Below are positions 483 through 22,560 of a stretch of 64,000 bases of DNA, piece by piece. The DNA is from Candidatus Saccharimonadota bacterium (lineage in GTDB: Bacteria > Patescibacteriota > Saccharimonadia > Saccharimonadales > Saccharimonadaceae). The position numbers were made by a program, and so were the translations under genes. Where the stretch lies: positions 67,783 through 131,782 of the forward strand of contig CAWVBZ010000001.1 in the NCBI GenBank assembly GCA_963927785.1. Direction: 5' to 3'. The notes under the pieces were generated by a model, which did not search any database, was not told the origin of the DNA, and was given only the letters and a program-made list of their open reading frames with translations. Position 1 is the first letter of the stretch; each line of letters begins with the position of its first letter.

Positions 483-1402
483 TGAAATATACAACAGAAT
501 CACTGAATAAATTCGCTAAACTGACTGGCAAGGATGTAGAGCTCTGGGAGAATACCTTTGCTAATTTAGACGACGAATATGGGCTCGTTTCTTACAACGA
601 CGTAGATTACCCTTTCATAATCGACAAGATGGGCGCTCCTATAGAGCCTGGATATACGACCAAGCGTGACGAACATAAAACAAAAGTACCAAACAAAAAA
701 GGCGCACCCCATTATCTACTCTATCGTGGAGATATCTCCTTATTGAATAGAGAAAATTTCAAGAAAAACGTTGCAGTGATCGGATTATTGAACCCAACTG
801 CGGATATAGCTGAACGAGAAAAAACGTTTGTGGTAGAAATTGTTAAAAGAGGCGGAAATATTGTTAGCGGCCTAGCGTTAGGCTGTGATTCGATAGCTCA
901 TAAAACATGCTTGGAGAATAATGGTAAAACAATCGCCGTCCTGCCTTCTAGATTAGCCAATATACTACCAAAAGAAAATATCGATCTGGCAAATGAAATA
1001 GTCGCAAAAGGCGGACTATTAGTAACGGAATACTACAACGAACCGGTTGAAAGATTTGAATCGTCTGCACGTTACATAGAACGAGATAGGCTTCAAGCAT
1101 ATTTTAGCAATTCTATAGTATTAACAGCTAGTTATAGGCATCCAGACAAATACTCCAAGCAATATCCGCAAGACGGTATAAAGAGAGATAGTGGTTCAAG
1201 ACATGCTATGAAAGTTGCAGGAGATATTGGCCGGAAGCGTTATGTACTATTCAATAAGTCTACTGATTCCCTGAATGAAATGTTCGATCTAAACAAAGAT
1301 CTATTGTCAGATAAAAAGAATCCTGCAAAAATACTGACAAGCTCTGAACTTGATAACTTAATGGATGGCGAATTGCCTGGCGCCCTTCCGATTTTTGGGT
1401 AA
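479..1402 (+). CDS. DprA/Smf-like (SLOG) protein
   Basis: Motifs LLYRGDISLL, VAVIG, IVSGLALGCDSIAH, TIAVLP, GGLLVTEY, YIERDRLQA, SGSRHA. Confidence 0.85.
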   Translation: MMKYTTESLNKFAKLTGKDVELWENTFANLDDEYGLVSYNDVDYPFIIDKMGAPIEPGYTTKRDEHKTKVPNKKGAPHYLLYRGDISLLNRENFKKNVAVIGLLNPTADIAEREKTFVVEIVKRGGNIVSGLALGCDSIAHKTCLENNGKTIAVLPSRLANILPKENIDLANEIVAKGGLLVTEYYNEPVERFESSARYIERDRLQAYFSNSIVLTASYRHPDKYSKQYPQDGIKRDSGSRHAMKVAGDIGRKRYVLFNKSTDSLNEMFDLNKDLLSDKKNPAKILTSSELDNLMDGELPGALPIFG

Positions 1403-4480: not shown

Positions 4481-4597
4481 TTGCTCGATAAAATAAAGTT
4501 AATCGCTACTACCGCTACTGCGAACGGCGATTCTGATTTTGTAGGCAAGCATCGTGATAAGCCCATCAAACGAGGTGCAGTCATTGATTTAGATTGA
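4481..4597 (+). CDS. Candidate 38-aa small protein MLDKIKLIATTATANGDSDFVGKHRDKPIKRGAVIDLD (not in ORF track)
   Basis: SD AAGAAGGTGA 6 nt before TTG; lies between a canonical promoter and a terminator. Confidence 0.4.
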   Translation: MLDKIKLIATTATANGDSDFVGKHRDKPIKRGAVIDLD

Positions 4598-4617
4598 TGA
4601 CTGTGCCGACACCTATA

Positions 4618-4659
4618 GCCTCACTGGCTCGGCGTTGCTGCTGAGCTGGTGGGGCTTTT
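4618..4659 (+). terminator. Intrinsic terminator
   Basis: GCCTCACTGGCTCGGC...GCTGAGCTGGTGGGGC long stem with GU pairs, followed by TTTT. Confidence 0.65.
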
Positions 4660-4662
4660 AAA

Positions 4663-4691
4663 TTGACTATCAGCTAAAATAGTGTTATTGT
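4663..4691 (+). promoter_or_regulatory. Sigma70 promoter for 4765..6285
   Basis: TTGACT-N17-TATTGT with extended TGn. Confidence 0.65.
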
Positions 4692-4764
4692 AAGCAAGAT
4701 GTTACCTGGCGATGGTGGGGCGCCAGTCTATATAGTACATTAAAAAATCCTAGAGAAGGGAAAC

Positions 4765-6285
4765 ATGGTGAGCAATTACCGTAAGCTATTGGTGAAAATG
4801 CTCCAGGGCGATGACGCCGAGTGGGCATTGGGCCAGATGAGCAACATGGCGATCTGGGACAATCTAGACACTATTCAGTCAAGCCATGCCAGCCTGTCGT
4901 CGGATAGGCTGCAGGCAATCATGGACAGCTTGCCACTGGGCAAGGTGAAGGCGAGCGACATTGCCGCAAAGCTTGACTTGCTGAAGGCAGCTGGTGTTGA
5001 CGATGACGCTATTGTGGCTATCTGCGCAAAGCGTAACCTTGACCTTGCGACAGCTGACCAGCTGCTGCGTAGGGAGGTGGCCGACAAGCCGACGCTATTG
5101 AAGCTGCTGTGTAGTGGCAGCTTCAACCCGAGTATTGACGGCCAAGCCATGCTTGACGAGTGGGGCGTAGGTATCAACGATCTTCTGCTGGCACAGGAGA
5201 GCCTTGTTGACACTCAGGCTATGTTCGACTGGTATGAGTCTCGCGATGCCGATATGGCATTGCTGCTTGACAAGTCGACGCCAGAGTTGCGGCGGGTTGC
5301 TAAGGCCAGGGAGGATAACGATGACACCACGGAGTCGTCTGATGATGAAAGCCAGTCCGTGCGCTGCCAGCTGGGTCCGCGTGAGCGTAAGCTCAAGGCT
5401 CTGAAGGCAACCAAGCAGGCTATCGACCATGGCAGTCTCGAGCTTGCTCGGATCTGTTGTGGCGATCTGGTTGATAGGTATGGCTTTAGCGGCACACACA
5501 TTACCCAGATCGTGCAGACGATCGACAGTGATATCAGTCTCGATACGGCTCAATACTTGATTGAGCACTGTGGGGCTGACCCAAGCGTAGTGGCAGAGCA
5601 CATGTCGCCTCGCGACGTGATGCGCTCCTATGCTTGGCTGAGGCGTAATGGTGTCAACATTGATGCTGCCGCCGCCTACGACCGCCTCGACCTTGTCGGC
5701 AAGGTTGAGTGTGCTGGTTGGGCGTATGCCAACGGCGTCAAGATTGACATTAACGGCGACCTACAAGAGCTGTGCGATCATCGTCCGACCTTCGAAATGA
5801 AGGGGGATGATGGTAAGGAAGTGCTTGTTCCTTACTGCGTCCGTCGCCCGGATATCTTGCTGCGCCTACCCTGCATCGACCGTCGCATCATGCTCGGTGT
5901 GCTGAGTGAGGACGATATCCTCACTTACAGCCACGAGCTGATGTGCTGCTGTCGTAAGCGCCGCGGCCAGGGCAGTGGTGCCTATGCCAGCTACGCTGAC
6001 ATCGTCAACGCTCTGTCGAGCTCGTTTATCGCCGAGCATCTCGTCGATATCATCGAACTTGCTTGCAATAAGGGCGACATGGCGCTGGTCATGGCCAAAC
6101 TGACTGATGCTCAGCTAAACAAGTCGATATCATATCTGCTCCGAGCCAATGCGCCCGTTGAGCGAGTGGCAAGCCGTATCTGGCCAAAGACGGCTATCCG
6201 CAAGTATGTCAATCTCAAACGTGCTGGCTTCAGCGACAAAGGCCTCTGGCAGATGATGAACGGACAACCGGTCAAGTCTGCTTAA
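4765..6285 (+). CDS. Hypothetical alpha-helical repeat protein (506 aa)
   Basis: Long ORF with SD and promoter; recurring LxxxG(A/V)xx(D) helical units; no catalytic motif recognised. Confidence 0.75.
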   Translation: MVSNYRKLLVKMLQGDDAEWALGQMSNMAIWDNLDTIQSSHASLSSDRLQAIMDSLPLGKVKASDIAAKLDLLKAAGVDDDAIVAICAKRNLDLATADQLLRREVADKPTLLKLLCSGSFNPSIDGQAMLDEWGVGINDLLLAQESLVDTQAMFDWYESRDADMALLLDKSTPELRRVAKAREDNDDTTESSDDESQSVRCQLGPRERKLKALKATKQAIDHGSLELARICCGDLVDRYGFSGTHITQIVQTIDSDISLDTAQYLIEHCGADPSVVAEHMSPRDVMRSYAWLRRNGVNIDAAAAYDRLDLVGKVECAGWAYANGVKIDINGDLQELCDHRPTFEMKGDDGKEVLVPYCVRRPDILLRLPCIDRRIMLGVLSEDDILTYSHELMCCCRKRRGQGSGAYASYADIVNALSSSFIAEHLVDIIELACNKGDMALVMAKLTDAQLNKSISYLLRANAPVERVASRIWPKTAIRKYVNLKRAGFSDKGLWQMMNGQPVKSA

Positions 6286-6378
6286 ACATAGCTTTACTTT
6301 AACCCACCACTCAACTAACGAGGTCGCAGGGTGCCACTACGGGCCCTGCGACCATGCTGGTTCCTTCTCTGGGTAAAT

Positions 6379-6436
6379 CTCTACTTCTATAACTGTGCGG
6401 TTATACTGATGAGCTCCAAAAGGACGAAAAGTAGAG
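6379..6436 (+). ncRNA. Type III hammerhead ribozyme
   Basis: Stem III CTCTACT/AGTAGAG; UUC cleavage triplet (cut after C6387); stem I TATAAC-(TGTGCG)-GTTATA; core CTGATGA; stem II G(C)TCC-AAAA-GGAC; core GAAA. Confidence 0.85.
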
Positions 6437-6441
6437 CAATA

Positions 6442-6464
6442 CCCGCAGGTGCGGGCTACTTTTT
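6442..6464 (+). terminator. Terminator immediately after the ribozyme
   Basis: CCCGC-AGGT-GCGGG followed by CTACTTTTT. Confidence 0.55.
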
Positions 6465-7872
6465 ATATGCGCAACAAAGAGGGGGAGAGGGATAGGAGGG
6501 CGTATTATAAAATAATAATATTACAATATTGTCAAATAGATTTGTCAAACATGAATGAGGCGGGTGAGTATATTTCACAATAAAATAATATTTTGTCAAA
6601 TATGTCAAATAAAATTGTGGAAAACTGCTTGACAAGATTTTTGCTGACGTCATGGCGTCACTGTCGATTTGATGATCGTTGAGAGTGATGACTATGATGT
6701 CTAGCAGCAGCTCATTGGACCTGCTAAAAGCTGAATTTTTGTAAAATTTCGGCTTTGCCGGTGGAGTCTCAAAAATAATTAAATATTAATTTAGGTGGCC
6801 GATTGTTAAACGGAGCTTGCCCCGTCCGACGGCAATTATTTTTCAAATTATTTTGGCACTCAAATAGGCTGAATGACAGAACGTCCAGAATCGGCAGTTT
6901 TTGGTGGGCTTCATCTGTAAAATAGTCTGTAGCGTCGTAAAAGGTATATTGTGCGACGTCAAGAATTTGACGGAGCCACACCATTCTTTATTACTCTCTA
7001 ACTGCTTAAAATCCAACTGATTTTTGTTGAGCGGTTTTTATTTAAATGTTGAAAAATTCTGGCTTACTCATACCCCCGCCATCGGCGATGTTTGGCGGTC
7101 ATGATTGATATTTGAATGGCGTTCGGTCGTTAATACGCTGGATGTCCCTTGATGGCCCCTCCACCGCTCTGACATCAGATATATAAAATTGTGCGACATT
7201 AAATAATTATTAAAAAGATGAGTATTTATACGTCTAGAAATAGTGCACTTCTGGCTAATATGTTGCTATATTGGCCGTCAGGCTAATTTTTAAAGATGCT
7301 AGCATTTGTCTGGCTGGTTCGTGGCCAGCTCGAACATGCTGAGTCAGCTAGAACTAGTTTGTGTACGACGCTTAAGCGTTTCCAGGCGTGACGATTGTCG
7401 ATCAAATAGCTGGTGACTATCAATATTTAGCGTCTAAATAAAACTGCCAGAATAAATGTAATTGGATATACAAAGTAATTAAATGATCGCTGACGCGGTG
7501 ACTGAAGCGTAGCAGAGTTGTGGCTGCGGTAACGCAATTTTTGACGTAGACCGGATGCGACGATAGGTCCACTCTTTTGACGTCGCAAAATATTAAGCTG
7601 CATTATAGTTGTGAGCTAGCTGGCTTGCTTTTGACGATATTGTTCGACGGCTGTCGGCGACTCTTCCTGCTCTATTCAAATTAAAACACCCACCAACATG
7701 CTTGATGTCGGCGGGTGTAACTATGTGCGGGCTGCTGTCTTCCTTCTCTACTTTCTGGCCTTGCCAATGATTGACAATGCGCGAATAAACACATTCAGTA
7801 GGTCAAGGAATATGCCACGGGCGTTGCTAATGGCGCTTAGCGCCGTCGGTTTGACTACTATTTTGCTTATGC

Positions 7873-7901
7873 TTGACGGCATGACGTTAATACTCTATTA
7901 T
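7873..7901 (+). promoter_or_regulatory. Sigma70 promoter for 7953..8387
   Basis: TTGACG-N17-TATTAT followed by a 5' hairpin ATCACAATGGCA/TGCTATTGTGAT. Confidence 0.6.
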
Positions 7902-7952
7902 GAGGGCGATCACAATGGCATGGTGCTATTGTGATAGGACATTTTACAGGAG

Positions 7953-8387
7953 GTGAAAGGAATGTCAAGTGTCCGCAAATTAACGGCTGACGAGCTTGGC
8001 TCATATGCTGAAAGGCTAGCCGAAACGTTTGGCGGTGCCCGCTACAAGGTGGCGGTTGCAATATGGCCGGTCTCTGGTCCCGTGGAATTGGCCGTGGCTT
8101 ATGTTATCGACTTGCATGATTCCAGTTCCCTACGCATCGCACAGGATGGCAGGAAGTATCTTGCACCTATCTACAGGTTCGAGCTATTTGAGCGATCCGA
8201 AGATGGCTCGCCAGTGCCTAGCGAGGCTCAAGCGAAAGCGCATATCTTTCTGGACGGTCACGATCCGGATTGGTCGACCTGTCAGGGCGGCAATAAGAGG
8301 TATGTTTGCGTGGATAGTTGTGTACCATTGCCGGCGAATTTGTCCAAAGAGGAGATTAGGGGTTTTCTCTACCCAATTCTTCTCTAG
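7953..8387 (+). CDS. Hypothetical protein (144 aa)
   Basis: Strong SD AGGAGGTG and own promoter; terminator-like hairpin AGCCCGTCG/CGACGGGCT at 8595-8616. Confidence 0.7.
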   Translation: MKGMSSVRKLTADELGSYAERLAETFGGARYKVAVAIWPVSGPVELAVAYVIDLHDSSSLRIAQDGRKYLAPIYRFELFERSEDGSPVPSEAQAKAHIFLDGHDPDWSTCQGGNKRYVCVDSCVPLPANLSKEEIRGFLYPILL

Positions 8388-8647
8388 GAGCTCTTGCTCC
8401 ACAGCTAACGTGCGGAGGAGTCGCGACTTCCTTTCAGGTAGGTGCGATCTGTTTCTGGTAAACGGCTCCTCCGTCCACCTCCATACTGGGCGGGGCGTCT
8501 AACCACCTTGACGCCTCGCCACCATACCGGAGTGGACGTCCATAACCCATCGGTTGCTATGCAACTGGGGCGCCCACTCCGACCAACATTCCCCAGCCCG
8601 TCGCAAACGACGGGCTCTTTCAAATATTGGGATACTTGTCGTTCTAA

Positions 8648-9733
8648 TTATGATTCGTTATGAGTATTGATGGTGTAGGTTTTAGCTGGGTTCCTGTGTA
8701 ACAGCTTAGTGTTGATAATGTCGAGGCACTTCTGATAGTCCTTGACCAGTAACCGACAGCGTAGGCTGTAGTTACCATATTTATTTTGAACCTTGCGGCC
8801 ATTGGTAATAATGCCGACCTTAATTAAGTCGTTGATAGCCTCCTGGTCAATAGGAATGCAATGATTATTGCAGTAATAGCCGGTGTAAAACTGATAAGGG
8901 ACTTTTCGATCGAGATAGCCGCGGGTTAGAGCCAATCGCACTGCGCTGTCTAGAATTGTCATGTTGTCGCTCTGGTCGCAGTTCCGGATCTCGTAATCTG
9001 TTTGATGTCGTAAATTGTAATCTAATTTACCTAAATCATTGCGCCAAAAGACTGGCTCGACTAGCTTGATATAGGAATCGATTTGTTCGGACTTCTGTCG
9101 GCTGTGGGCGGCACGCACATCGTCGATGAGCTCATGCCAAGCGTATAGTGGCCAAAAATAATCGGGCGTCGCTCCGCCGCGCTTGTTGTCGCTGATATCA
9201 ACGGTCTGTCCCCGATAGTCCAGTGACATCCAATCCTCGTCCTCGTAGATCATATAAATGCCCTGATTACCATCGGTGGTCAACTCGGGGCTTTTTGAGA
9301 AGAAAACATCAACATTGTATGCGTCGCGACTGTTGTAGGAGTGGTATCCATGGTTAAAGACGCTGTGGTAGAACTCGCTACAGTGTTGCTGAAATAGCTG
9401 GGATAATAGGTTGATAGTGGTTGCTTGATCCAACCCGTCGACGCTGTTAGCGTGGTACACTTCCAGGCCCTGCTGGCTCTGGACAACCAGCAGTGCAGCG
9501 TAAGCGTCGCTATAATAATCCAAACCGTTAGCGGCTGGCGTAAGGCGGCTGATGTAGCCATAGATAATCTGGACCGCAGACAGATCTTTAACAAAATCCG
9601 CACTAAGACAGCCATCGGATTGACCAACTGCTGGAAAGTTGCTGGGGTCCTTGCTGTAGTGAATGTGCTTCAGCGACTCAATGTACTCCTGAGCCGTTAT
9701 ATAGTTGGCTGGTTGAGATGTACTACTGTTCAT
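8648..9733 (-). CDS. Hypothetical protein, paralog 3 of tandem family
   Basis: 361-aa ORF; segments QIIYGYI, WPLYAWHEL, LALTRGYL, AINDLIKVGII align by eye with the two upstream ORFs. Confidence 0.75.
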   Translation of the reverse strand: MNSSTSQPANYITAQEYIESLKHIHYSKDPSNFPAVGQSDGCLSADFVKDLSAVQIIYGYISRLTPAANGLDYYSDAYAALLVVQSQQGLEVYHANSVDGLDQATTINLLSQLFQQHCSEFYHSVFNHGYHSYNSRDAYNVDVFFSKSPELTTDGNQGIYMIYEDEDWMSLDYRGQTVDISDNKRGGATPDYFWPLYAWHELIDDVRAAHSRQKSEQIDSYIKLVEPVFWRNDLGKLDYNLRHQTDYEIRNCDQSDNMTILDSAVRLALTRGYLDRKVPYQFYTGYYCNNHCIPIDQEAINDLIKVGIITNGRKVQNKYGNYSLRCRLLVKDYQKCLDIINTKLLHRNPAKTYTINTHNES

Positions 9734-9750
9734 ATTTACTGTCTTACTCC

Positions 9751-11406
9751 CTATTGATGAGCCATATAGACGACGTCATAGTTGTCGTCAGTCTCGGTGG
9801 GATCATTAATGACGCTGTCAACATATTGATTGAGATTAGTACGATATTGCTGAGCGCCGAATAGCAATACCTTGGCAATGAAATTGCGTCGCAGATTATA
9901 CTCGTATGGCACAGTCCACTTGTCGCCGCCCAGATTCAGGGCGCCATAGCCGGTGGCGATAGGTGTAATGGCGTCGTCAAAATTGTAAATACTGACAATC
10001 CAGTCGAAATTGGTCATTAAGTATTTAACGGTTTCACAACGTAACATGGCGATATTAACACGTTCGTCACTACTGTATTGCAGCTGTGCTGGTGTGCTGA
10101 TGGCGAATAGAAAGTCCATATAGCTAGTCAGATAGCCTGCGTCAATAATGTATTTAGTCACGCAGTTGTGAAATAGCGCCATATCACCGTCGGATGGAAA
10201 GAAACCGGCTGGGCCGCTGATGGTTTTGAGTAGGCCACGCAACGAAATGTCGTTAGTGCACTCAGTCAGATATTGCTTGACCGGCTCGCTGGTGGTGCGT
10301 AACAAATAGTCGTGCAATCCATCCACCAGCACATCAATAGTGCGATAGTCCAGCACGGGCATAACCACTTCCCAGTTGGACCGATCGATCAAGTCAAACC
10401 TGATTAGCTTGTCGTCAATGTAGAATTTGTCTATTGTGTCAGCCAAGGCGTCAATGCTGGCCTGCTGGCTATCAATCAGATCGGTGATTTCCTCAGGCGA
10501 ATCCAATAGGCATTCATAGCCAGTGTTCAATGCAGTATTGGTTGATGATTTAGTAATGTCGGTAGCCTCCTTGCTAAGGATACCAAGGCCAATCAAATAG
10601 TTGACGATTGTAGCTGGTGACGTCACAGTGTCTAGCTCGGAATTATCAAAAATATTGCTGTAGTTCGCAATAATGTCGGGGTTGATATAGCCAATAGCCC
10701 AGGCCAACAGGGCGACACGTTGGCGAGCGCTTTGGATGGCTTGATCGCGAGTAGGTCCGACTGAGTACTGCCAATAGGCCTGTTGCATTGTTTGCAGTTG
10801 ATCGTCACTAGTATCCCCCGCAAGATCCTTCAGGGTAATCCAATTACGTAGTGGCTTAATTAGGGCGGTGCTAATGTAGTCCCGGCTATGATTGTAGTAA
10901 AGCAGAGCATCGCATTCGATAATATAGCCATCGTAGTCAATACAGGCGTGCTCGTCGTCCAACTCTTTGACCGTAAATTCAGTGTCATTGGCCGCTACCA
11001 GAATGTCGCCATCATTGACATGGCAATAGCATAACCGATCATCATTTTGGTCACGTACGTCCATAACTAAATCCCGAAAATACTGGACCGCTGAGGCGTC
11101 GTCTGGGCCATTAGCAGTATTTAAAATGTACTTAGTGAGCTTATTGCTGTCCTTAGCCCGGGCATACACCTCAACAATGGAGCCGGTTAAGCGGTATCCG
11201 GTCTGGTTATTAATAGTTGCGTTGGCATTGTCGACAATATGTAGATAAATAATGTTGTCGGGCTGAATTGTCCTGGCCTGCTGGATGGTTAGGCCATAGC
11301 AGTAGTTTGGCATTTGCAGCCCCAAATCGTTGGCTGCGTCGGCTAAGGTGCTATATCTTGTGGGCACCCCTGTCTTAGACTTGCTAGCTGTTGTTTTGTT
11401 TGCCAT
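9751..11406 (-). CDS. Hypothetical protein, paralog 2 of tandem family
   Basis: 551-aa ORF, SD AGGAGG; N-terminal YSTLADAANDLGL (NUMOD1-like). Confidence 0.8.
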   Translation of the reverse strand: MANKTTASKSKTGVPTRYSTLADAANDLGLQMPNYCYGLTIQQARTIQPDNIIYLHIVDNANATINNQTGYRLTGSIVEVYARAKDSNKLTKYILNTANGPDDASAVQYFRDLVMDVRDQNDDRLCYCHVNDGDILVAANDTEFTVKELDDEHACIDYDGYIIECDALLYYNHSRDYISTALIKPLRNWITLKDLAGDTSDDQLQTMQQAYWQYSVGPTRDQAIQSARQRVALLAWAIGYINPDIIANYSNIFDNSELDTVTSPATIVNYLIGLGILSKEATDITKSSTNTALNTGYECLLDSPEEITDLIDSQQASIDALADTIDKFYIDDKLIRFDLIDRSNWEVVMPVLDYRTIDVLVDGLHDYLLRTTSEPVKQYLTECTNDISLRGLLKTISGPAGFFPSDGDMALFHNCVTKYIIDAGYLTSYMDFLFAISTPAQLQYSSDERVNIAMLRCETVKYLMTNFDWIVSIYNFDDAITPIATGYGALNLGGDKWTVPYEYNLRRNFIAKVLLFGAQQYRTNLNQYVDSVINDPTETDDNYDVVYMAHQ

Positions 11407-11470
11407 GTAGCCTCCTCTTTCATCTCTAATTATATACTGATTTCCTAATTGGCAAATATAGTTGGCTTAG

Positions 11471-12421
11471 CTAATCTTGCGGTGGCAACCATCTGCCTCT
11501 ACTTCGGCAAAATGCAGTAATTTGTTCGCCCGTTATACCAATAAATGGGTATCTATTGTTGTCTGGATTGCTATCGTTGCTATTGAGTGGATTCCTGCCA
11601 ATGATGCCAAGACTAATCAGATTTCTTATAACGGAGTCTGGGCCATAAACTGTTAGATCGAGATTATCGTTATTATCGTAAATGTTGCTCAACTTGCTCA
11701 GCGCTGCCTTGCTGAGGTATCCAAGCGCTTGAGCCAGACTGGCTGCCCGATAATGCACATCGGTTAGATCGGCCTTGCGGCCAGTGTTTAGCCCGCCAGA
11801 GTATTTCCAGAAAGCATCTGCAGCGGCCTTGATCTGACTCGGCTTGATCAGTTTCTTTAGCTCGGTCCAACGTTGCCATGGGTCAATGGCTACTGTGGCG
11901 TATAAGCCGTCCTTTGCCCCGTCGCATTCAATGAGATATTTACCGGCGTAGGTAAAACAGGTATGACCGGCTATCATTCTCACTGCAAACTGACCGTCGC
12001 TTTCCTTTTTGAAGAATAAGTCTAAATGGCCCGCGCGACAGTACCATAGAGTGTTGCCACTGAACCAATTGGCTATTTCTACTGTTTTGAAATAAATGAC
12101 GCGCTGTTGTTGGTCGTTGCGATATGTATCAACATCCATTTTCTTGAGCTGGTTGTCTTGGAGGTAATACAGACGAGCACGTCCATAAAAACCGGCATAG
12201 CCAGACATTGTGTTGTAATTGATGAAGCCCTGGCTGTTTATTTGTATATAAATAATTTGTGATTTATCTATTTGCTCAAAGGCACTCACTGTTATGGGGC
12301 TAACGTCTTCTGGCGCCATTAGCCCTAAATCTTTAGCAGCCTCCTCTACTGATTCGTATGAATGGCAATTATCTGCTTCAGCATTCTTATTTGCAAACCG
12401 CCCGTTAGATCTTTGACTCAT
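11471..12421 (-). CDS. Hypothetical protein, paralog 1 of tandem family
   Basis: 316-aa ORF; N-terminal YESVEEAAKDLGL (NUMOD1-like); colinear similarity to 9751..11406. Confidence 0.8.
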   Translation of the reverse strand: MSQRSNGRFANKNAEADNCHSYESVEEAAKDLGLMAPEDVSPITVSAFEQIDKSQIIYIQINSQGFINYNTMSGYAGFYGRARLYYLQDNQLKKMDVDTYRNDQQQRVIYFKTVEIANWFSGNTLWYCRAGHLDLFFKKESDGQFAVRMIAGHTCFTYAGKYLIECDGAKDGLYATVAIDPWQRWTELKKLIKPSQIKAAADAFWKYSGGLNTGRKADLTDVHYRAASLAQALGYLSKAALSKLSNIYDNNDNLDLTVYGPDSVIRNLISLGIIGRNPLNSNDSNPDNNRYPFIGITGEQITAFCRSRGRWLPPQD

Positions 12422-12456
12422 CTCGTTATTTATTATAGCTGCTATGCTTCGTGAAG

Positions 12457-15339
12457 TTATAAGAATAGTCTTCCCTGCCCGGTTGAGGTGGTTTCAACAT
12501 GCTTTAATTCAAAATAGTTGAGAATATCGTGCATGGTGGCATTGCGATTCTTCCAATCGTAGAACGTTTCATCCCCGACAATAACATAATGCCAGGTATA
12601 GTTCTGGCGCTTGTCGGCTGGTAGTGCATTGATGCGGTTTACCCAATGGATAGCAGCTTTCTTCTTCCTTAAGACGTCAACTTGTTGGAGTTGATTTTGT
12701 GCTTTGGTTTCTACCATGTAAATATCATTGACTATGCGGACAAAGAAGTCAGGGATATAGCTTGATGGTAGGCCGTCATTACGAACATAGCGAAGTCTGA
12801 CAAAGGTATGCTTACTCTCGATAACTTTTGCTACGGCATCTACTTCGCCGTCATGATCGGCGAACAGCAAAAAGTCGCGTTCGAAGCCGCCTTTGTTTTT
12901 TGGATAAGGTGTCAGTTCATAGATGTTTTTAGCCAAGTTAACGGAATAGTTTTCGCGAACAAGTAGACTGTCAATACTGGATAATGGCGTAAAATGGACG
13001 CTGACATTTCCGGTGGTTTCCATATGTTCTTGTGCGCCGACGATTAGTCCACTAATCTGTTTTACTATATGGTTAATGACGCCTGATATAAGCAGTACAT
13101 TATACGCCAGTTTGTCGTTTTGCGGATTAATCGTTTGGCCAAATAAGTAGTTGCGAATGTAGTTGTCAACTATACCAGTAACTTGAGATAAGTTGATAGC
13201 TAGTGCGGGGTATCGTTGTTGCTTGTTGTCTGGCTGATACAAACTATTGACGATACGATTGACGAGTCTGGCTAGATAGTCATTGTAGCTAGTTGATTGG
13301 AATATGTTGTTGCTCACTACAAAATCGCCAATCGTGGTATGTGATGTTGCTTCGCGAGTAATCCATCGGTCGTTGGTTGGGGCTATCTTTTCTAATTCAT
13401 CTAATGCCATTGGATATTGACGTAGTGAGCTAATGTTCGCTCGAATATCTGGCATGGTTTGTTCCCCTTCGCTAATAATTGTTGGAAAGTAGAAATCGTA
13501 TTGTTGATAATTATCCTTTAAACTAACCCTCTTAAAGTCGTTGATGATATCCTCATTCTCTTTGCTGGTGTCAGCAAAATCGGCAACTGTGCCATCGGCA
13601 ATAAGCTCGTCGTAGAATTGACGAAAGGCTGGATGCTCCACGATGCTCAGAATGTCGAAGAAACTTTGCGGTTGTTTGTGCTCCATAAAGATTCTCCGAC
13701 GGTCGTCAGCTTTCATTTGGTCGATCTCTGGGTCGCCTCGCCACATTAACCTTAGACCACGACCAATAGTCTGTTCCAATAGAATTCCTGACTGGGTTGA
13801 GCGCAACGGTACAATAACGCAAATATTATTAACATCAAAGCCCTCGCGAAGCATTAAGACGGATATGACAACTTTGGGGCTGTCGTGTTGGTCTAGCGAC
13901 GATAGCTTTAATTTAATATTATTCCACTCCTCTTCGCCGACTTCGCCCTTTTTATTGCTGTGAATTTCCAGAATGTCATCATCAGATAAGCCTTCTTGGA
14001 TTAAAAAGTCGTGCACATGGCCAACAACTTCAGTCTCCTCGCACATAATCATCATCTTGGGTGATTTATTGGGCTGTCCCAACTGGGCAAAACTATCTTC
14101 CAGGAGTTTGAGCTTAGCCAATCCGGCTCTTAGCATGGTGCGTTGCCCATCAGATATGTCAATAATATGTCCGTTTTCGCGAATTGCACGAAAATCCAGT
14201 TCCTCAGTGTTGAGCTCCTTGCGCTCGTCGAGAGCTATAGTTTTTACTAGACCTGACTGGATGGCGGTTCTTAAGTTAAAATCGATGACGATATGTGGAA
14301 AGTAAATTTTGCCTTTACCCTGCTCCATGTATGGCGTGGCTGAGAAGTCCACTTGCATGTATTTGCTTGGCACTTTTCCGTCGGCTATATAACGCAAACT
14401 CTTTTGCCACTCTACCTCGCCAACTCGCTCGCCTCGCTTCTGGGTGCCGTGAATGTGGTGTGCCTCGTCATTAATAACCATAAGATTATCTAGATCGTGC
14501 AAATATTCTAGAGCTTGCTTATTGCTAGATCCGCCGTCCAAAACGTCTAGACTATTACCAGCGGTTGTTCCTGGTCTAACTGGTAGACTATAGCTAGAGA
14601 TCTCACCTGGTCTGTCGCTCTCCTCGTCTTTGTCAACCATTAACAAATGGTAGTTAGTAATAGCCAACAAGCCATCGCCAGTTACTTTATTGCCGATCTC
14701 CTCCTTTCGAACAACGCATGAGTTAAGAAATCCAAAAACTTCTTGGCGATACTCTTCTGGGATAAACAGCTCCTGATTTTTGTACAAATCACCAGTATTA
14801 ATATCTCTAGTAGTACCATCGTCGCTGAGCTTGCCTTTGAAGGCATCCAGCAGTCGTTCGTAGACGATGAGCCCGGGTGCTACTAACAGAAAATTGCGAG
14901 TGTAGTTACCCGGCTCGTTGTGCCTAGCATTAAGATATTGCCATAGTAGTAGGGCTTCTAATACCCATGTTTTGCCTGTCCCAGTGGCCATTTTGACGGC
15001 ATATTTGGGGTGGTTGTATATTTCGTCGCTAAAACGTTCTAGATTAATCTGTCCCTTTGCAACCAATAAATCCGGGCTGATATGTTCATAAATATCGCGA
15101 ACGTTCTGGCAATGCATGACATCGTGCAGATAAATGATATTTTTGATTGCTTGGCACTGCCCGGCGTGAAAGTTGACTTGGCGTTGCTCGCAAAAGCTGT
15201 TGCCAAACCAGTATGTCAACAAATTGCGAGTTGTTGGCGTAACGCTGGCCAGAAAGCTGCCCTCTTCCCAGGCGTCGTTAACACGATTTGTAATCAGTTT
15301 AGCTAGTTCTAATGGCGGATATTGATTGAATGAACTCAT
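12457..15339 (-). CDS. res: Type III restriction enzyme Res subunit (SF2 helicase plus PD-(D/E)xK nuclease)
   Basis: KMATGTGKT (Walker A), [22 protein letters not shown]-terminal YIPDF...VETK; overlaps the mod stop. Confidence 0.9.
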
Positions 15340-17308
15340 AGATTTACCTCTCGGATTACTTCGCTCTCTTGGCCGAAGACGTCAACAGCTCGAACAGCGA
15401 TGCGTCGCTTTTGTTTATGCGTAACTGGCAAGGTGGTTTTAGCGGCTACTCTTAGCGGGTCATTGTCACCATTACCGGTATTGCCACGATAATCTTGCCA
15501 GACACTACGGAAGGTGGCGCCATCATAATCTGGGTCTATACTCCAATATTCAATTAGGGCTAGTGGATCGTGGCCGATAACTTCATTAACTTTAGCTCGG
15601 TTTTTGTCGTCTAGTGGTAGGCTGTCGCCGCTAATAATAACGTAGTTGTCCAGCTCAACTGTAAGTCTGTCCGGCTGACCGGGCTCGCCCAGTGTTATTT
15701 CGGGTTGCTTAATAGTCAGGTATTGTAGGCTACTAAAACGAATCGGCGTTGTGATGGTACCGTCGGATTGAACGGCCACTTGACTGCTGAGCTTTTTAAA
15801 GCTGTTTTTACTCTTAATCTGATCTAACAAATCTGGCGGAATAACCAACAGATCTAGCTGACCATTGATTATTTGATTTTTGTAAATTTCCATAATCTCA
15901 CTGATGCGACTATCGAAGTTCCAGCCCAAAACAACTACCTTACGATAACCGCCCAGGGTATTCTCGCGAGCGTCGATAGCTTGGTCTATGATGTACTTGT
16001 TGACTACTTGTGACGGACTAGCTACCATCACTAAAGTTTTATTACCTGGCAATGTCCCTAAATTACGTCGCGGACATTCCTCAACTGATAGCGGTAACGC
16101 TCCATATAATTTTAGAACGATCTCATTTAGATCACCGATTCGATAGCGACTGCCCATGGTACTGGTTAGCTGTTCGCGCTGGTAATCGCCAATGGACTGA
16201 TACAGAAATGGTTGAGCATTATTGTCGATTAGACGTTTGCGCATAATCATGGTGGCAGGTTTGCCAATATCACTAGTAATCCATCGACGTCCTAGCTTCT
16301 CGGCAACAGCTGCAGTTGTGCCAGACCCGCCAAAGAAGTCAGCGACAATTGACCCTTCATTTGATGACGCTTCGATGATGCGCTCGAGCAGTTTTTCTGG
16401 TTTTTGGGTGGCATATCCTACTACCTCTGGGTTCCAGCCAGTAACCGTTGGGATATCTGTCCACCAATCAGTTATTGGCGTCCCTCTACTGAGGTCTAGA
16501 TCTTTTGCTTGCCCGCTAGCGTTATTTGTGCTACTTTTGCCAACGCTTTGTGTATTTTCCTTGTATGGACGATATGAAATGTGAAATACGTATTCTGATG
16601 ATTTTGCATATCTGAGTAGAATATCGTGCTTTCTCGGATAATCGGTCCTGGGAGTAGCGCCCCCATTGTATGTCCACACGATTTCGTTTCTTAATTTATC
16701 TTTCCCGAAAATGTCGTCCAGAATGACTCGCACATATGAGTCAACGTGCCAATCGACGTGAACATATAGCGTCCCCTGTTCGCTCAATAATTCTCGCATT
16801 AATACTAGTCGTGGATACATGTAGCGTAAATAGGCTAGTGTGCCACGAACCTCGACTTTGTTGTCGCCATGGCCTAGCTCCCCGCTCCAGGTGTCGGCAT
16901 AGGCAAACTGTTCCAAAATGGTAGGCTTCTGCTCGATATCCGCGCCTGGCAGGACAATTTTGGTTCGATAATCAGCCTTACTATCATATGGTGGATCAAT
17001 GTAAATTAAGTCAATCCTGCCACGCATACTGGGTAGGCTGCTAGCTTCATCGCCGGCCAGTAATGCTTGCATGGCCAATAAATTATCGCCGTAAATTAGG
17101 CGATTATGCCAATCTAAGCTGTGGGGGGGGTATTTTCAGTATTGGCCCTAATTGCTAACTGAGCCTGCTCTGAATTTGGATAAACCAACTCGTTTGTCTG
17201 TAGTGATATCCGCGAGCTGTTACTCAGCCCGTCCAGAATGCGTTTAGCCTCCCTGCGACCTTCTTTAACTACTTCTGGTAGCATATCAATAATACTTGTG
17301 CCTGCCAT
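15336..17308 (-). pseudogene. mod: Type III adenine methyltransferase Mod, split by a 1-nt frameshift in a C8 tract (OFF phase as sequenced)
   Basis: DPPY and DFFGGSGTT motifs; N-terminal ORF 17114..17308 has SD AAGGAG and joins the [16 protein letters not shown] frame if the tract is C9 or C6; C9 gives 657 aa. Confidence 0.85.
17123..17130 (-). repeat. Homopolymer C8 (G8 on +) simple sequence repeat at the mod frameshift
   Basis: GGGGGGGG at 17123-17130, exactly at the frame junction. Confidence 0.9.
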
Positions 17309-17385
17309 CTTCTTCTCCTTATTGTCTACTGTTTATATTATCACAAAGATCGAAGCCATTATTTTGGCGGTATAATCAGATTATT

Positions 17386-18279
17386 ATGGATGCGCAGCCG
17401 GACGATTATTATTATGATCAGTCATTTCGCGAATTGATGGATATTGAAGAGCGACTATCGCTAGACGACATTATTGATAGCGATAATCTGAATATTGATT
17501 TGATCCGAAAGTTTGCCAAAATTGTGGATGCTCGCTTTGAGGAGCAAAATGACACCATCGATCATCTACTATCGCGCATCGACAAACTCGAATATGTTAA
17601 CAAGAAGTTGGCTAGTCAACTAAATGATATTAAACGTAAAGATTCCGTTAAAAGTATCAAGATCGAGACTGATGATGTATCGACAGACAGCTTCGTCGTG
17701 CCAGTTCGAGTTAATGATGATGTGGCGATTAACCAACAGAAATTGACGGAGTTTTTGCAGACTCATAAATATATTCGGATTCTAATGCTGTCAGTCTACT
17801 ACCGGGGTAAACCGTGGTGGATTAACCTGATCGTCGATGGCTACAATGATCATCTCATAGCTGGCCGAGTGTCGAGCAATACTGAAACGCATAGTTTTAT
17901 GAGAGATCAGATTATTGGTTTTAGTGAATGTTCCGAGGAGTATATTAGCTCCATTGAGGCCAATGGGTATCAATCTAAGCAGTCGGTTGACGTTGGCGAT
18001 ACGGTTCAATGTGAGGTAACAATGTCGACTGGCGAGATAATTAATCGCACTATAACCATTGTGCCTGCTACTTATAAATATATTTATAATGGAGTTTCCC
18101 GGGATGTCGCTAGTGGTCCAATTAAAAAAGCTACATATGAAATCGATGTGGATAATGGCGAAATAAGCAATGAGTCGTTGGTTGGCAAATCATTACTTAA
18201 CCGCCACGTTGGAGACGTCGTTGTTGTGTATGGTAAAAATAGCCACGAGTTTAGATATAAGATAAAGCGAATTGGCTAA
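17386..18279 (+). CDS. Protein with N-terminal coiled coil and C-terminal GreA/GreB-like domain
   Basis: C-terminus ISNESLVGKSLLNRHVGDVVVV resembles GreA ISxxSPLGxALLGxxVGD; start chosen at ATG 17386, just downstream of TATAAT at 17371. Confidence 0.6.
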   Translation: MDAQPDDYYYDQSFRELMDIEERLSLDDIIDSDNLNIDLIRKFAKIVDARFEEQNDTIDHLLSRIDKLEYVNKKLASQLNDIKRKDSVKSIKIETDDVSTDSFVVPVRVNDDVAINQQKLTEFLQTHKYIRILMLSVYYRGKPWWINLIVDGYNDHLIAGRVSSNTETHSFMRDQIIGFSECSEEYISSIEANGYQSKQSVDVGDTVQCEVTMSTGEIINRTITIVPATYKYIYNGVSRDVASGPIKKATYEIDVDNGEISNESLVGKSLLNRHVGDVVVVYGKNSHEFRYKIKRIG

Positions 18280-18350
18280 CTGTAGTCAGTCACTAGCAGC
18301 AAAGTGCTACAATTAAGTCATTGCACTATCTGTAATGTTCTTTCTATTCT

Positions 18351-18584
18351 TTGGGGGGTATGGCTATGGCTGAACACTATGCAATCCGTACTGGCGTGGG
18401 TCGTGATTGGGAAGGTCGAGAACGTGCCTTTGTGGCACTGGATGTCCGTTATGGTGACAACTACTTCTACCAGGAGCGAGAGCGATGGTGGTTTGACCTT
18501 TTAGAACCGAATGCGAGCGGGCAAGTTGATCCGAATATGCGCGCTAAGATCCGCGAACTAATGGAGCAGTATTTTGTCAAATGA
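18351..18584 (+). CDS. Small hypothetical protein
   Basis: Protein-like 77-aa ORF followed by hairpin GAGGCTTCGTC/GGCGAAGCCTC. Confidence 0.5.
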   Translation: MGGMAMAEHYAIRTGVGRDWEGRERAFVALDVRYGDNYFYQERERWWFDLLEPNASGQVDPNMRAKIRELMEQYFVK

Positions 18585-18717
18585 TTGGCTCGTCGGTCTG
18601 TTGTCGCCCTCAGTTTCGAGGCTTCGTCATTGCGGCGAAGCCTCTGTCTGTAGATGGATTATGGTAATTTTGCCTATTGGCTATCGTGTAAAATAAATAT
18701 ATAAACAAGGAGGATTT

Positions 18718-19154
18718 ATGGCGTATTCGGACATTCTAAAGACTCGTCGGTCGATTTACATTCTGAACGACGATCTGCCAGTCAGCTTCAATGAAGTTGC
18801 CGACCGAATCAGGGAGACTATCTCCCTATCCCCAACGGCCTTTATGATGCAGGACATTCACGCCATTGTTTTGACCGGGGATAACCACAAGAAGTTGTGG
18901 AACCGGATTGTTCATGATACCTTGCAAAAGATTGTGCCACCCGAGCCATTTAAACGAACTGAGGTCAAGCTGCAGACCTTTAGCAAAGCCTATGGTACAA
19001 TCCTGCTGTTGCGCGATTTAGACGCTGTTGAACAGATGAAAAAAGACTACGCTACCTACGCCGACGAGATGTATAGCTGGTCTTTGGTGGCATTGTGAGT
19101 CGCCCTGGCGACAAAGAGCGCAAATCTGGCGATGAACTGGTCGAGATCAAATAA
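18718..19154 (+). pseudogene. Nitroreductase-family (Frm2/Hbn1-like) gene with internal out-of-frame deletion
   Basis: N-terminus KTRRSIY...SPTAF...AYGTIL; the expected C-terminus FGGIVSRPGDKERKSGDELVEIK* follows YSWS in another frame. Confidence 0.75.
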
Positions 19155-19249
19155 GTTGTTGATATTAACCAAGTATTGGATAAACGAAAAGTCCGCCAGG
19201 AAACTGGCGGACTTGCTTTGTTGGAGGGGTTGCGCCGACGATGGATGGA

Positions 19250-19648
19250 CTATCCAGCTTTGCGAGTCTGGCAGATGGCGATGACCGTGTAGCCGTCCTT
19301 GGGATCGACAACAATGCCGATTTTGGCGCCCCACATACCGGCAATGCCTCCATCTCGACGTTTGGCTGCCAGGTAGAACAGTTCGATGTCTTTTAGTCCT
19401 AATTTGACCGAGTAATCGAACGTCGTACCTTGACTCTTGAAGCTGTAGCCAGCTTCGCGCGGGTTGGTCTTGGATAGGCCGATAACGACAAAGGACTGTC
19501 CTTGTGAGTACTCAAAGCCTTGATCGACGTGGCTTACCCAGACGTCGTGATAGCAACCTGGGTCGGTCGCCACGGCATTAATGGCCTTAGCCATGACATC
19601 GACGCCTCCAATGAGGACAGGCGTTAAATTAACGCTCATTTTCCTCAC
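19250..19648 (-). CDS. Hypothetical protein
   Basis: 132-aa ORF with SD GAGGAG. Confidence 0.65.
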   Translation of the reverse strand: MRKMSVNLTPVLIGGVDVMAKAINAVATDPGCYHDVWVSHVDQGFEYSQGQSFVVIGLSKTNPREAGYSFKSQGTTFDYSVKLGLKDIELFYLAAKRRDGGIAGMWGAKIGIVVDPKDGYTVIAICQTRKAG

Positions 19649-19787
19649 TCTCCTCTAAAACGGCCGGTGCTATTCCGGCAATTTGACATAGCATCTATTA
19701 TGCTACATCAAATTGCTAGCACCGGTCAATTTTAGCTAGATAATTACTTATTGTTTGTCGACATTAATAGCCTGATCAAACTCATCT

Positions 19788-20108
19788 TTAGTCATTGTAA
19801 ACCTCCTTAGCAATGCGAAATGCTGCCCAAGCGTTGGGTCAGCCAGCATAAAAAGCGACATGGGTGATTAATTCAGCCATCTCTTCCTTAGTGACGCCAT
19901 TAGTCTTGGCTGTGTTCATGTGAGCAACCAGGCTGGAATCGGTAATACCCTTACTGATTAGTGACGTAACGGTGATAATCGAGCGGGTTTTGAGATCGAG
20001 CTTGTCCTCTCTGCTCCAGACTTCGCCAAATAGTACGTCGTCGTTTAGCTCAGCAAATTTAGGCGCAAAATCGCCTAGCTGATCACGACCGGCAGTTTGC
20101 TTGACCAT
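19788..20108 (-). pseudogene. Carboxymuconolactone decarboxylase (CMD/AhpD-like) family gene with nonsense mutation
   Basis: MVKQTAGRDQLGDFAPKFAELNDDVLFGEVW...AFYAG*PNAWAAFRIAKEVYND; TGA stands at the usual YAGWP tryptophan. Confidence 0.85.
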
Positions 20109-20156
20109 CTTTACCTCCCTTCTTTAAATATAGTGATATTATATCCAGCTGGAGTT

Positions 20157-20426
20157 GCTCTAAGTCAAAATCGACGGGTATTCACTGATGAATCATTGGC
20201 TCAGTTGGAGCTGGTCAAGTGCTTTCGTGGTTGCGGTATGTCGATTGAGTCGATTAAGAAGTATTTGCGACTAGCCAAGGACGGCGATGCAACGTTGTTG
20301 CAGCGATTCGAGATTATTAAACAGCAACAGCGAGCGATTGAGGAACAATTTAATGAAGCCAAGCGGCGCCTGGAGTTCATTAACCGCAAGGTGCAATGGT
20401 ATCAAGGTAAGTTGGATAATCGATAA
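20157..20426 (+). pseudogene. MerR-family regulator remnant (N-terminal HTH missing)
   Basis: NRRVFTDESLAQLELVKCFRGCGMSIESIKKY...RKVQWY; no proper start or first helices. Confidence 0.7.
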
Positions 20427-20512
20427 CTCCACGCTTACCCATCATTTTTAGTAAAAGAAAAGCCGCCCGCATGGTTAGCGAGCGGCATTTTGGGTGGATC
20501 GGACGCATATGT

Positions 20513-21262: not shown

Positions 21263-21369
21263 AGCTATCCTCTCCTCTCATTGTAGGTGCGATTCCTATA
21301 GAACGTGCTGATATATTATAAAATAAAAACGTCCATTTGGCTAGTGTCAAGTCATTTAGCCTGTTAGAT

Positions 21370-22140: not shown

Positions 22141-22560
22141 TCAGCCCTCCCTTCGGCTAAGCGACGCCTGGATGCTACGGGGCGTTTCTTTCCATTGCGA
22201 TATAATCCAACGATCGATGATGACATCTCGACAGTGTTATTGATGATGTTGGCGAATGCAAGGACGTGGATGGTATATATATGCGTACAACTATTTATTT
22301 TATCCATTTATGTTTATTATATACCACTACCGAAGTGCGCCCCGGCGGAACCGGGGCGCTGACGGTGAAAGTACTGGGACGAGAAGCTGTTGTTGGGGGC
22401 AATACACCTCCATGGTTGAGTTGATGATATCAAGAAAACATAATAACTCTATTATGACAACACGTATGCATCTTTACTCTACTGCTTTGCTTGACGTTAA
22501 TTATCATGACTTAGACCTATGAAAAAGCCCCGGTTTAACCGGGGCTGGATTATGGATATG

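What the first reader, a model, noticed from the sequence alone, without database searches (positions are those of the whole stretch)
8648..12421. Three tandem paralogs of an unrecognised family directly downstream of the type III R-M genes
The 316-, 551- and 361-aa ORFs share colinear blocks: YESVEEAAKDLGL / YSTLADAANDLGL (NUMOD1-like DNA-binding motif; absent or diverged in the third), QIIYIQI / NIIYLHI / QIIYGYI, YLIECD / YIIECD, PWQRWTEL / PLRNWITL / PLYAWHEL, LAQALGYL / LAWAIGYI / LALTRGYL and NLISLGII / YLIGLGIL / DLIKVGII. They have diverged strongly and have different C-termini. They are co-oriented with res, 36 nt from its stop. A diversified paralog set next to a candidate phase-variable R-M system suggests an undescribed defence or specificity module.
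Basis: partly seen in the sequence, partly recalled or inferred. Interest (0 to 1): 0.65.

Follow-up and report, generated by a model that had tools for sequence, protein, structure and literature searches.

The report
Orphan three-gene paralog cassette in Saccharibacteria
Three neighbouring genes in a chicken-gut Saccharibacterium are real, very diverged copies of a protein family with no known relatives, but related strains carry them without the adjacent restriction-modification genes, so they are a separate swappable cassette of unknown function, not a restriction accessory.

Summary
P1 (11471-12421), P2 (9751-11406) and P3 (8648-9733), all on the minus strand, share a ~300-aa N-terminal module. 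P1 vs P2 gives BLASTP E=4e-26. P3 is detected only by a profile (hhalign 91.5%, E=8.5e-7), but it beats all 4000 shuffles.

All three genes are under purifying selection (pN/pS 0.12-0.22).

The family is an orphan. It has no match in Pfam, NCBIfam, PADLOC, PHROGs, PDB or BFVD, and it occurs only in a few chicken-gut Saccharibacteria lineages.

The link to the type III R-M is not conserved:
- Contig L020 has P1-P2-P3 at 94.5% nt identity with no GreA-like, mod or res genes.
- Same-species contigs (flanks 95% identical) have a single 48%-identical P2 allele and no R-M.
- Other species have P1'-P2' or P2' alone.

The R-M block (about 12482-18300) is therefore an indel beside an autonomous cassette of one to three copies, at a recombination hot spot.

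Function is unknown. My best guess, at low confidence, is a cytoplasmic conflict-type module: P2 supplies a conserved C-terminal domain and P1/P3 are N-module-only partners. This is a new family of moderate interest.

The parts
11471..12421 (-). P1, 316 aa: N-module only, plus a short tail. Orthologs are P0016 in L015/L017 (46% identity) and the L020 copy (96%).
   Evidence: pN/pS 0.22 vs L001
9751..11406 (-). P2, 551 aa, acidic (pI 4.4). It is the one family member present in every intact locus recovered. It combines the N-module with a conserved C-terminal helical domain.
   Evidence: AF2 pLDDT 76, pTM 0.76; dN/dS 0.17 vs L020
10507..11406 (-). P2 N-module (aa 1-300), shared with P1 and P3. 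It evolves fast: only 35-39% identical to orthologs, which are 51-94% identical to each other.
9751..10416 (-). P2 C-terminal domain (aa 331-551): 66-71% identical to orthologs, with many invariant His/Asp/Cys/Arg/Glu residues (DGLHDY, FFPSxGDMALFH, MLRCET, VPYEY). Absent from P1 and P3.
   Evidence: no relatives elsewhere
8648..9733 (-). P3, 361 aa: a very divergent N-module paralog, found only with this cassette type (window cluster, L018-L020).
   Evidence: dN/dS 0.12 vs L020
12422..12481 (-). P1 upstream region, including a TATAAT box 13 nt before the ATG. It is conserved in L020, where no res gene exists. It overlaps the last 7 codons and the stop of res.
   Evidence: alignment of the junctions
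12482..18300 (.). Indel block that is not part of the cassette: res (12457-15339, -), mod (15336-17308, -, C8 tract, out of frame) and a GreA-C-like gene (17386-18279, +). Absent from L020, L011-L017.
8619..8647 (.). Right-hand boundary of the variable segment. Homology at 95% to the same-species one-gene allele (L011) resumes at 8619, 29 nt past the P3 stop. The left-hand boundary is at about 18301-18305.

Best explanation
P1, P2 and P3 are an autonomous gene cassette specific to one lineage. They are not part of the type III R-M system.

Shown: the family occupies one fixed chromosomal slot (nitroreductase / 72-aa gene | cassette | convergent 141-160-aa gene) in a small clade of chicken-gut Saccharibacteria. 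It occurs there as one, two or three copies. P2 (N-module plus conserved C-domain) is present in every intact locus recovered (L018 has only a truncated copy), P1 sometimes, and P3 only in this cassette type.

Shown: the slot is a recombination hot spot.
- Within one species, two alleles coexist that are as different as those of different genera (a 9.7-kb segment versus a 1.75-kb single gene, 48% aa identity, between flanks 95% identical).
- The three-gene cassette has moved between lineages (94.5% nt identity inside flanks only 76% identical).
- The GreA-like/mod/res block is an independent 5.8-kb indel immediately upstream. I cannot tell insertion from loss.

Inferred: P1-P3 have their own promoter.

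Inferred, with low confidence: the proteins are soluble and cytoplasmic and work together. P2 would contribute a conserved, probably catalytic, C-terminal helical domain. The fast-evolving N-module, also present as the stand-alone paralogs P1 and P3, would provide recognition, regulation or hetero-oligomerisation. The role would lie in some genetic-conflict process (phage or mobile-element defence, or interaction with the host bacterium).
For: - Paralogy.
- Real genes under purifying selection: pN/pS 0.14-0.22 vs L001-L006; dN/dS 0.12-0.17 vs L020.
- Independence from the R-M: L020 has P1-P2-P3 abutting the 72-aa gene, with no mod/res. L011-L013 have one P2 allele between flanks 95% identical to the window. 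L015/L017 have P1'-P2', and L014/L016 have P2' alone.
- Transfer between lineages: the cassette is 94.5% nt identical, the flank is 76%, and the neighbouring 141-aa protein is 37% aa identical.
- Mosaic history inside the cassette: dS is 0.078 for P2 but 0.41 for P3.
- Hot spot: a different insert (an 880-aa orphan) lies at the same upstream site in L015 but not in L017.
- Own promoter: 59 nt upstream of P1, including TATAAT, are conserved in L020.
- Domain logic: the N-module is 35-39% identical to orthologs and the C-domain 66-71%. The C-domain has many invariant polar residues.
- Soluble and acidic, with no hydrophobic segment.
- Defence-rich neighbourhood: ShosTA at 3-1402 and the type III R-M.
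Against: - No homology or fold match gives any biochemical handle, so the functional part is inference from evolutionary pattern only.
- P2 is present at a fixed position in every related genome recovered. That looks more like a lineage-specific core gene than a patchy defence system.
- There is no sign of positive selection between close alleles.
- Co-transcription with res in the window strain cannot be excluded. The gap is 35 nt and no convincing terminator was found.
- There is no evidence that the three proteins interact.
- The survey of relatives is small (about 6 lineages), because the genome search was shut.
Confidence: 0.6

Rival explanations
1. Accessory or specificity module of the phase-variable type III R-M. 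P1-P3 would be co-transcribed with mod/res and would modulate or extend restriction.
For: The genes are co-oriented. P1 lies 35 nt after the res stop, and no convincing terminator lies between them. In all contigs of the window's strain cluster, res precedes P1.
Against: The same cassette occurs without an R-M in L020. P2 and P1-P2 orthologs occur without an R-M in five other configurations. An exhaustive profile search of 1.84 billion proteins found no family member outside this clade, so relatives of this R-M elsewhere lack such genes. There are no shared nucleotide repeats or recombinase for cassette shuffling. The P1 promoter-like region is conserved where res is absent.
Confidence: 0.08
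2. A lineage-specific, non-conflict (housekeeping or physiological) protein family that evolves fast. It would have duplicated locally and simply lie next to an insertion hot spot.
For: P2 is present at the same syntenic position in every related genome recovered, near the end of the dcw/ftsQ region. Selection is purifying throughout. CPR genomes are rich in such orphan families (general knowledge).
Against: Within one species the P2 alleles differ by 52% in protein sequence while the flanks are 95% identical. The cassette has also been exchanged between lineages. That pattern is unusual for housekeeping genes. Copy number varies from 1 to 3.
Confidence: 0.22
3. Remnant cargo of a mobile element or phage: DNA-binding proteins with a NUMOD1-like N-terminal motif, perhaps degenerate homing-endonuclease-like or nuclease proteins. 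A conserved Asp (DLFF/DVFF) and Glu/Asp (IECD/VDIS) would be catalytic residues.
For: A sub-threshold NUMOD1 / I-HmuI NUMOD-like hit covers the YxSLxEAAxDLGL motif of the L015 P1 ortholog. D134 and E164 (Asp in P3) are conserved on predicted beta-strands in all three paralog groups. The cassette moves between lineages.
Against: There are no relatives in IMG/VR viral contigs, the INPHARED phage records or BFVD. No integrase, transposase or repeats flank the cassette. The motif match covers 16 residues and is far below the cut-offs. The AF2 model shows one short helix followed by strands, not a helix-turn-helix. Foldseek finds no nuclease fold. P2 is strongly acidic.
Confidence: 0.07

Closest known systems
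Genomic defence/variable 'hot spots' between conserved core genes (as described for E. coli, Pseudomonas and Vibrio; from general knowledge, not tested against a database here)
   Same: The flanks are conserved and the cargo between them varies. Within one species the alleles differ completely. An R-M system is inserted here, and a different orphan gene at the same site in L015. ShosTA lies 7 kb away.
   Different: One family (P2) is always retained in the slot and itself diverges, rather than being replaced by unrelated systems. No integrase or tRNA lies at the borders.
Phase-variable type III R-M systems (phasevarions, e.g. mod genes with homopolymer tracts)
   Same: The neighbouring mod has a C-tract of 8, 9 or 10 in different contigs, and only C9 gives the full 662-aa protein.
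   Different: The paralog cassette is not a component of this system. It occurs without mod/res in most loci.
NUMOD1 DNA-binding motif of homing endonucleases (Pfam PF07453; I-HmuI NUMOD-like PF22083)
   Same: The N-terminal motif Y-x-S/T-x-x-E/D-A-A-x-D-L-G-L resembles the first helix and turn of NUMOD1.
   Different: The match covers only 16 residues and scores 12.6-13.7 bits against cut-offs of 22.8 and 27. There is no hit in the window's own P1, P2 or P3. No second helix is predicted, and there is no endonuclease domain.
Multi-copy hsdS specificity cassettes of type I R-M (shufflon-type phase variation; general knowledge)
   Same: Tandem diverged paralogs lie next to R-M genes.
   Different: There are no inverted or direct nucleotide repeats between the copies, no recombinase, no similarity to HsdS, and the R-M is type III.

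Membership tests
NUMOD1 (PF07453) / I-HmuI NUMOD-like (PF22083) | Match to the Pfam model at or above the gathering score | tested here: not met
   P1, P2 and P3 of the window give no hit even at E<=10. The best hit is in the L015 P1 ortholog: 12.6 and 13.7 bits against cut-offs of 22.8 and 27, over 16 residues.
NUMOD1 (PF07453) / I-HmuI NUMOD-like (PF22083) | Helix-turn-helix-like two-helix unit | tested here: inconclusive
   The AF2 model of P2 (pLDDT ~87 in this stretch) shows one helix at 21-27, followed by strands 34-37 and a short helix 41-45. This is a prediction only.
Type III R-M system (as an extra subunit or accessory gene) | Conserved co-occurrence with mod/res across relatives | tested here: not met
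   Only 1 of 6 locus configurations has mod/res. L020 has the same cassette without it.
Known anti-phage defence systems (PADLOC-DB 2.0) | HMM match of any component | tested here: not met
   No hits at E<=0.1 for P1, P2 and P3, and none at E<=0.01 for the orthologs P0016 and P0017.
hsdS-like recombining specificity cassettes | Repeats shared between copies, plus a site-specific recombinase | tested here: not met
   No repeats longer than 22 nt and none between the paralogs. No recombinase domain in neighbouring ORFs.
PD-(D/E)xK nucleases | D...(D/E)xK motif on an alpha-beta-beta-beta-alpha-beta core | tested here: not met
   D134 and E164 are conserved, but the third position is Asp or Ser, not Lys (E-C-D/S). 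The two residues are 30 apart with two strands between them. Foldseek finds no nuclease (best PDB E=0.14).
HD-domain phosphohydrolases (considered for the P2 C-domain because of the invariant 'LHDY') | H...HD...D metal-ligand pattern and an HD fold or Pfam match | tested here: not met
   There is no invariant upstream His, no Pfam HD hit, and no PDB sequence or fold match.

The most novel reading that the evidence does not exclude
The cassette would be a previously undescribed, self-contained conflict system of Saccharibacteria (phage/mobile-element defence or a determinant of host interaction). A conserved enzymatic C-domain on P2 would be steered by interchangeable, fast-evolving N-modules: its own plus the stand-alone paralogs P1 and P3. 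The system would be kept as a balanced polymorphism and exchanged between species at a dedicated chromosomal slot.
Probability: 0.2. Interest if true: 0.6.

Novelty: categorically new. Interest (0 to 1): 0.35.

Why it matters
Candidate-phyla-radiation bacteria such as Saccharibacteria are full of genes with no assigned function. Families that vary within a species and move between species are the most likely to mediate interactions with phages or with the host bacterium.

This cassette is a clean, testable example. It has 1 to 3 copies in one slot, a predicted fold that matches nothing known, and a strongly conserved putative catalytic domain.

The analysis also removes a tempting false lead: the cassette is not part of the neighbouring phase-variable R-M.

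"Categorically new" here means only that the family cannot be placed in any known family or fold. It does not mean that new biology has been demonstrated. Orphan families are common in this phylum, so the interest score is moderate.

Tried and rejected
- **Family libraries.** Pfam, NCBIfam, PADLOC and PHROGs scans of P1-P3 gave nothing meaningful. A member-by-member Pfam scan at E<=10 gave only the 16-residue NUMOD-like hit and a spurious Ste5_C hit.
- **PDB sequence profiles.** The N-module gave none. The C-domain gave only a GH12 glucanase at E=0.033, which I judge spurious because the domain is predicted all-helical and the hit is a beta-sandwich.
- **Fold search.** Foldseek of the P2 model against PDB and BFVD gave a best E of 0.13-0.14 and TM below 0.2.
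- **Exhaustive profile search of 1.84 billion representatives.** It returned only a P2 ortholog, two fragments of P1, and a spurious eukaryotic C-type-lectin repeat protein, P0008.
- **Other collections.** IMG/VR and JGI metagenome scans with both the N-module and the C-domain found no relatives. A P2 protein search of phage records and a nucleotide search of plasmid records found no match.
- **Shufflon or gene-conversion idea.** There are no nucleotide repeats between the paralogs.
- **Diversifying selection between close alleles.** Not seen: dN/dS is 0.12-0.22.
- **AF2 of P3.** With the family alignment, pLDDT was 50. Only the order of secondary-structure elements in the first half agrees with P2, and the alignment biases that result. 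I did not run a fold search on this model because it would be meaningless.
- **Transcription data.** No metatranscriptome run was found; the only RNA runs listed were single-cell runs under a coded organism label and do not hold the stretch.
- **Whole-genome tools.** The genome search and the fetch from genomes were shut, so I could not survey the window's genome or its relatives.
- **Promoter/terminator scan.** Uninformative.
Full report
**What is there**

On the minus strand of the window lie, in order of transcription:
- a type III mod gene (15336-17308, with a C8 tract that puts it out of frame);
- res (12457-15339);
- three ORFs with no database match: P1 (11471-12421, 316 aa), P2 (9751-11406, 551 aa) and P3 (8648-9733, 361 aa).

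A GreA-C-terminal-like gene lies divergent from mod (17386-18279). A 141-aa orphan lies convergent to P3 (7953-8387).

The organism is an uncultured chicken-gut Saccharibacterium.

**Is the paralogy real?**

P1 and the first 320 residues of P2 align over their whole length: BLASTP E=4e-26, 29% identity.

P3 is another matter.
- Pairwise BLASTP is not significant (E=0.36 and 1.4).
- A two-sequence profile gives hhalign E=0.085.

I then collected orthologs of P1 and P2 from other contigs and built an 11-sequence profile of the N-module that contained no P3 sequence.
- hhalign against P3 plus its 89% variant gave probability 91.5%, E=8.5e-7, over 222 columns.
- hmmsearch scores of 14.7 and 24.3 bits exceeded all 4000 shuffled controls, whose maximum was 11.7 bits.
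- Among 565 ORFs of the window and all fetched loci, the profile found only the P1, P2 and P3 genes. P3 variants scored E 4e-7 to 1e-3 and the next ORF 0.49.

A joint alignment shows residues invariant across all three groups. Among them are the Asp of DLFF/DVFF, the Trp of W..L, LA..GY and L...G. An AF2 model of P3 was poor (pLDDT 50). Its first half has the same order of helices and strands as P2, although the family alignment biases that result.

In the tree it sits on a branch of about 2.8 changes per site.

**Are they genes?**

Yes.
- Against near-identical contigs L001-L006, pN/pS is 0.14-0.22 for P1, P2 and P3, the same range as res (0.14).
- Against L020, dN/dS is 0.17 for P2 and 0.12 for P3.

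**What family?**

None known.
- Pfam, NCBIfam, PADLOC and PHROGs gave nothing.
- PDB sequence profiles gave nothing credible.
- An AF2 model of P2, built on ten sequences, was decent (pLDDT 76, pTM 0.76). It shows an N-module (an alpha/beta part at about 17-170, then a helical part to about 275) and an all-helical C-domain (about 300-520).
- Foldseek found nothing in PDB (best E 0.14, TM<0.2) or in BFVD (best E 0.13).
- An exhaustive HMM search of 1.84 billion representative proteins returned one P2 ortholog, two P1 fragments and a spurious lectin repeat.
- The k-mer search found seven P2 relatives (45-48% and 97% identity), and one relative each for P1 and P3.
- A scan of GTDB species representatives found three Saccharibacteria MAGs.
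- IMG/VR, JGI metagenomes and, for P2, phage records hold no relative of either domain; a nucleotide search of plasmid records with the region also found nothing.

The 'NUMOD1-like' motif is a 16-residue, sub-threshold resemblance. It is detected only in one ortholog, at 12.6-13.7 bits against cut-offs of 22.8 and 27.

**Is it tied to the R-M system?**

This is the key result, and the answer is no. Six locus configurations were recovered, all in the same chromosomal slot between the nitroreductase/72-aa genes and a convergent 141-160-aa gene:

| # | Loci | Content of the slot |
|---|---|---|
| 1 | window, L001-L010 | GreA-like, mod, res, P1, P2, P3 |
| 2 | L020 | P1, P2, P3 (96/97/89% aa; 94.5% nt over window 8547-12481), abutting the 72-aa gene, no R-M |
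| 3 | L011-L013 | one 549-aa P2 allele only (48% aa identity) |
| 4 | L017 | P1'-P2' |
| 5 | L015 | an unrelated 880-aa orphan, then P1'-P2' |
| 6 | L014, L016 | P2' only |

Details for these rows:
- **Row 2.** The L020 flanks belong to another lineage. The flank is 76% nt identical, the 141-aa neighbour is 37% aa identical, and a Bax1-I gene is present.
- **Row 3.** The L011-L013 flanks are 95% identical to the window on both sides (4520-8619 and 18305-27625). They come from the same chicken cohorts as the row-1 contigs.
- **Rows 4-6.**

The GreA-like/mod/res block (about 12482-18300) is therefore an indel next to the cassette. The last seven codons and the stop of res lie in DNA that L020 also has upstream of P1. 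That shared stretch includes a TATAAT box 13 nt before the P1 ATG.

I cannot tell insertion from deletion. Either way the cassette exists, is maintained and is exchanged without the R-M. No nucleotide repeats or recombinase suggest hsdS-like shuffling.

**Evolutionary pattern**

P2 is the one constant member, apart from a truncated copy in L018. The tree indicates that the P1/P2 duplication predates the split of the species sampled.

The window/L020 P2 has an outlier N-module. It is 35-39% identical to the other orthologs, which are 51-94% identical among themselves. Its C-domain is 66-71% identical. So the duplicated module is the fast-evolving part. The C-domain is strongly conserved, with many invariant His/Asp/Cys/Arg/Glu residues.

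Within the cassette, dS between the window and L020 is 0.078 for P2 but 0.41 for P3. The adjacent 141-aa gene is mosaic among strains. Recombination breakpoints are therefore frequent here.

The proteins have no signal peptide or hydrophobic segment. P2 is acidic, with pI 4.4.

**Most likely explanation**

- **Shown:** an autonomous cassette of 1-3 copies of an orphan family sits at a recombination and insertion hot spot. It is polymorphic within a species and transferable between lineages. The type III R-M is an independent neighbouring indel.
- **Inferred:** the cassette has its own promoter.
- **Inferred, low confidence:** the proteins are cytoplasmic and act together. P2 would provide a conserved, probably enzymatic, C-domain. 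The variable N-modules (its own, P1 and P3) would give recognition or regulation in a conflict-type role.

The pattern of balanced, horizontally exchanged alleles beside defence genes (R-M here, ShosTA at 3-1402) favours a conflict role. The constant presence of P2 in one slot and the absence of positive selection argue for caution.

**Rivals**

- R-M accessory (about 0.08).
- Fast-evolving lineage-specific physiological gene (about 0.22).
- Mobile-element or nuclease-like remnant (about 0.07).

**Verdict**

The family is unclassifiable with every library available. I file it as categorically new only in the sense that it cannot be placed in any known family or fold. Because orphan families are common in this phylum and no function is shown, interest is moderate, at 0.35.

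Noticed in passing
window 17120-17140 (mod, minus strand): The poly-C tract near the 5' end of mod has 8 C in the window, L003 and L004, 9 C in L002 (which gives the full 662-aa Mod) and 10 C in L001. This is a phase-variable type III mod, and the window copy is out of frame.
   Followed up: partly
window 16415-16681 (inside mod): This ~270-bp stretch of mod does not align with L001, although the rest of mod/res is 96-98% identical. It lies after the DPPY motif, so it is probably the target-recognition domain. That suggests allelic specificity variants among strains.
   Followed up: no
window 3-1402: A PRTase-like ORF and a DprA-like ORF hit the PADLOC models ShosT (E=3.8e-7) and ShosA (E=7e-43). 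A ShosTA-type defence pair therefore lies 7 kb from the cassette.
   Followed up: partly
window 7953-8387: The convergent 141-aa orphan is mosaic. It is 96% aa identical to L011, which has a different cassette allele, but only 82% nt identical (with gaps) to L001, which has the same cassette. Homologs (31-40% aa) flank the cassette in every species.
   Followed up: partly
window 7175-7240: A ~55-nt element (ATATATAAAATTGTGCGACATTAAATAATTATTAAAAAGATGAGTATTTATACGTC) in the ORF-poor region is almost invariant in L011, L014 and L020, whose surrounding DNA is only about 70-76% identical. It may be a promoter plus a tiny leader ORF (MSIYTS...), or a small RNA.
   Followed up: partly
window 6380-6435: Rfam Hammerhead_3 (RF00008) matches at 32.7 bits, E=1.6e-4. 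This is below the gathering score of 48.5, so the match is absent from the default scan.
   Followed up: partly
L015 5953-8595: An 880-aa orphan ORF with no Pfam or PADLOC hit is inserted upstream of P1' in L015 but is absent from the otherwise near-identical L017 locus. It is a second, unrelated insert at the same hot spot.
   Followed up: partly
L018 1-1455: In this 2.7-kb contig, P2 is cut at residue 441 and abuts an ABC2-membrane gene on the other strand. This is either a rearranged locus with a truncated P2 or a chimeric assembly.
   Followed up: no
L020 722-1714: The L020 copy of P1 has a one-codon deletion. It has also lost the stop codon, which extends the protein by 15 residues (330 aa).
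   Followed up: yes
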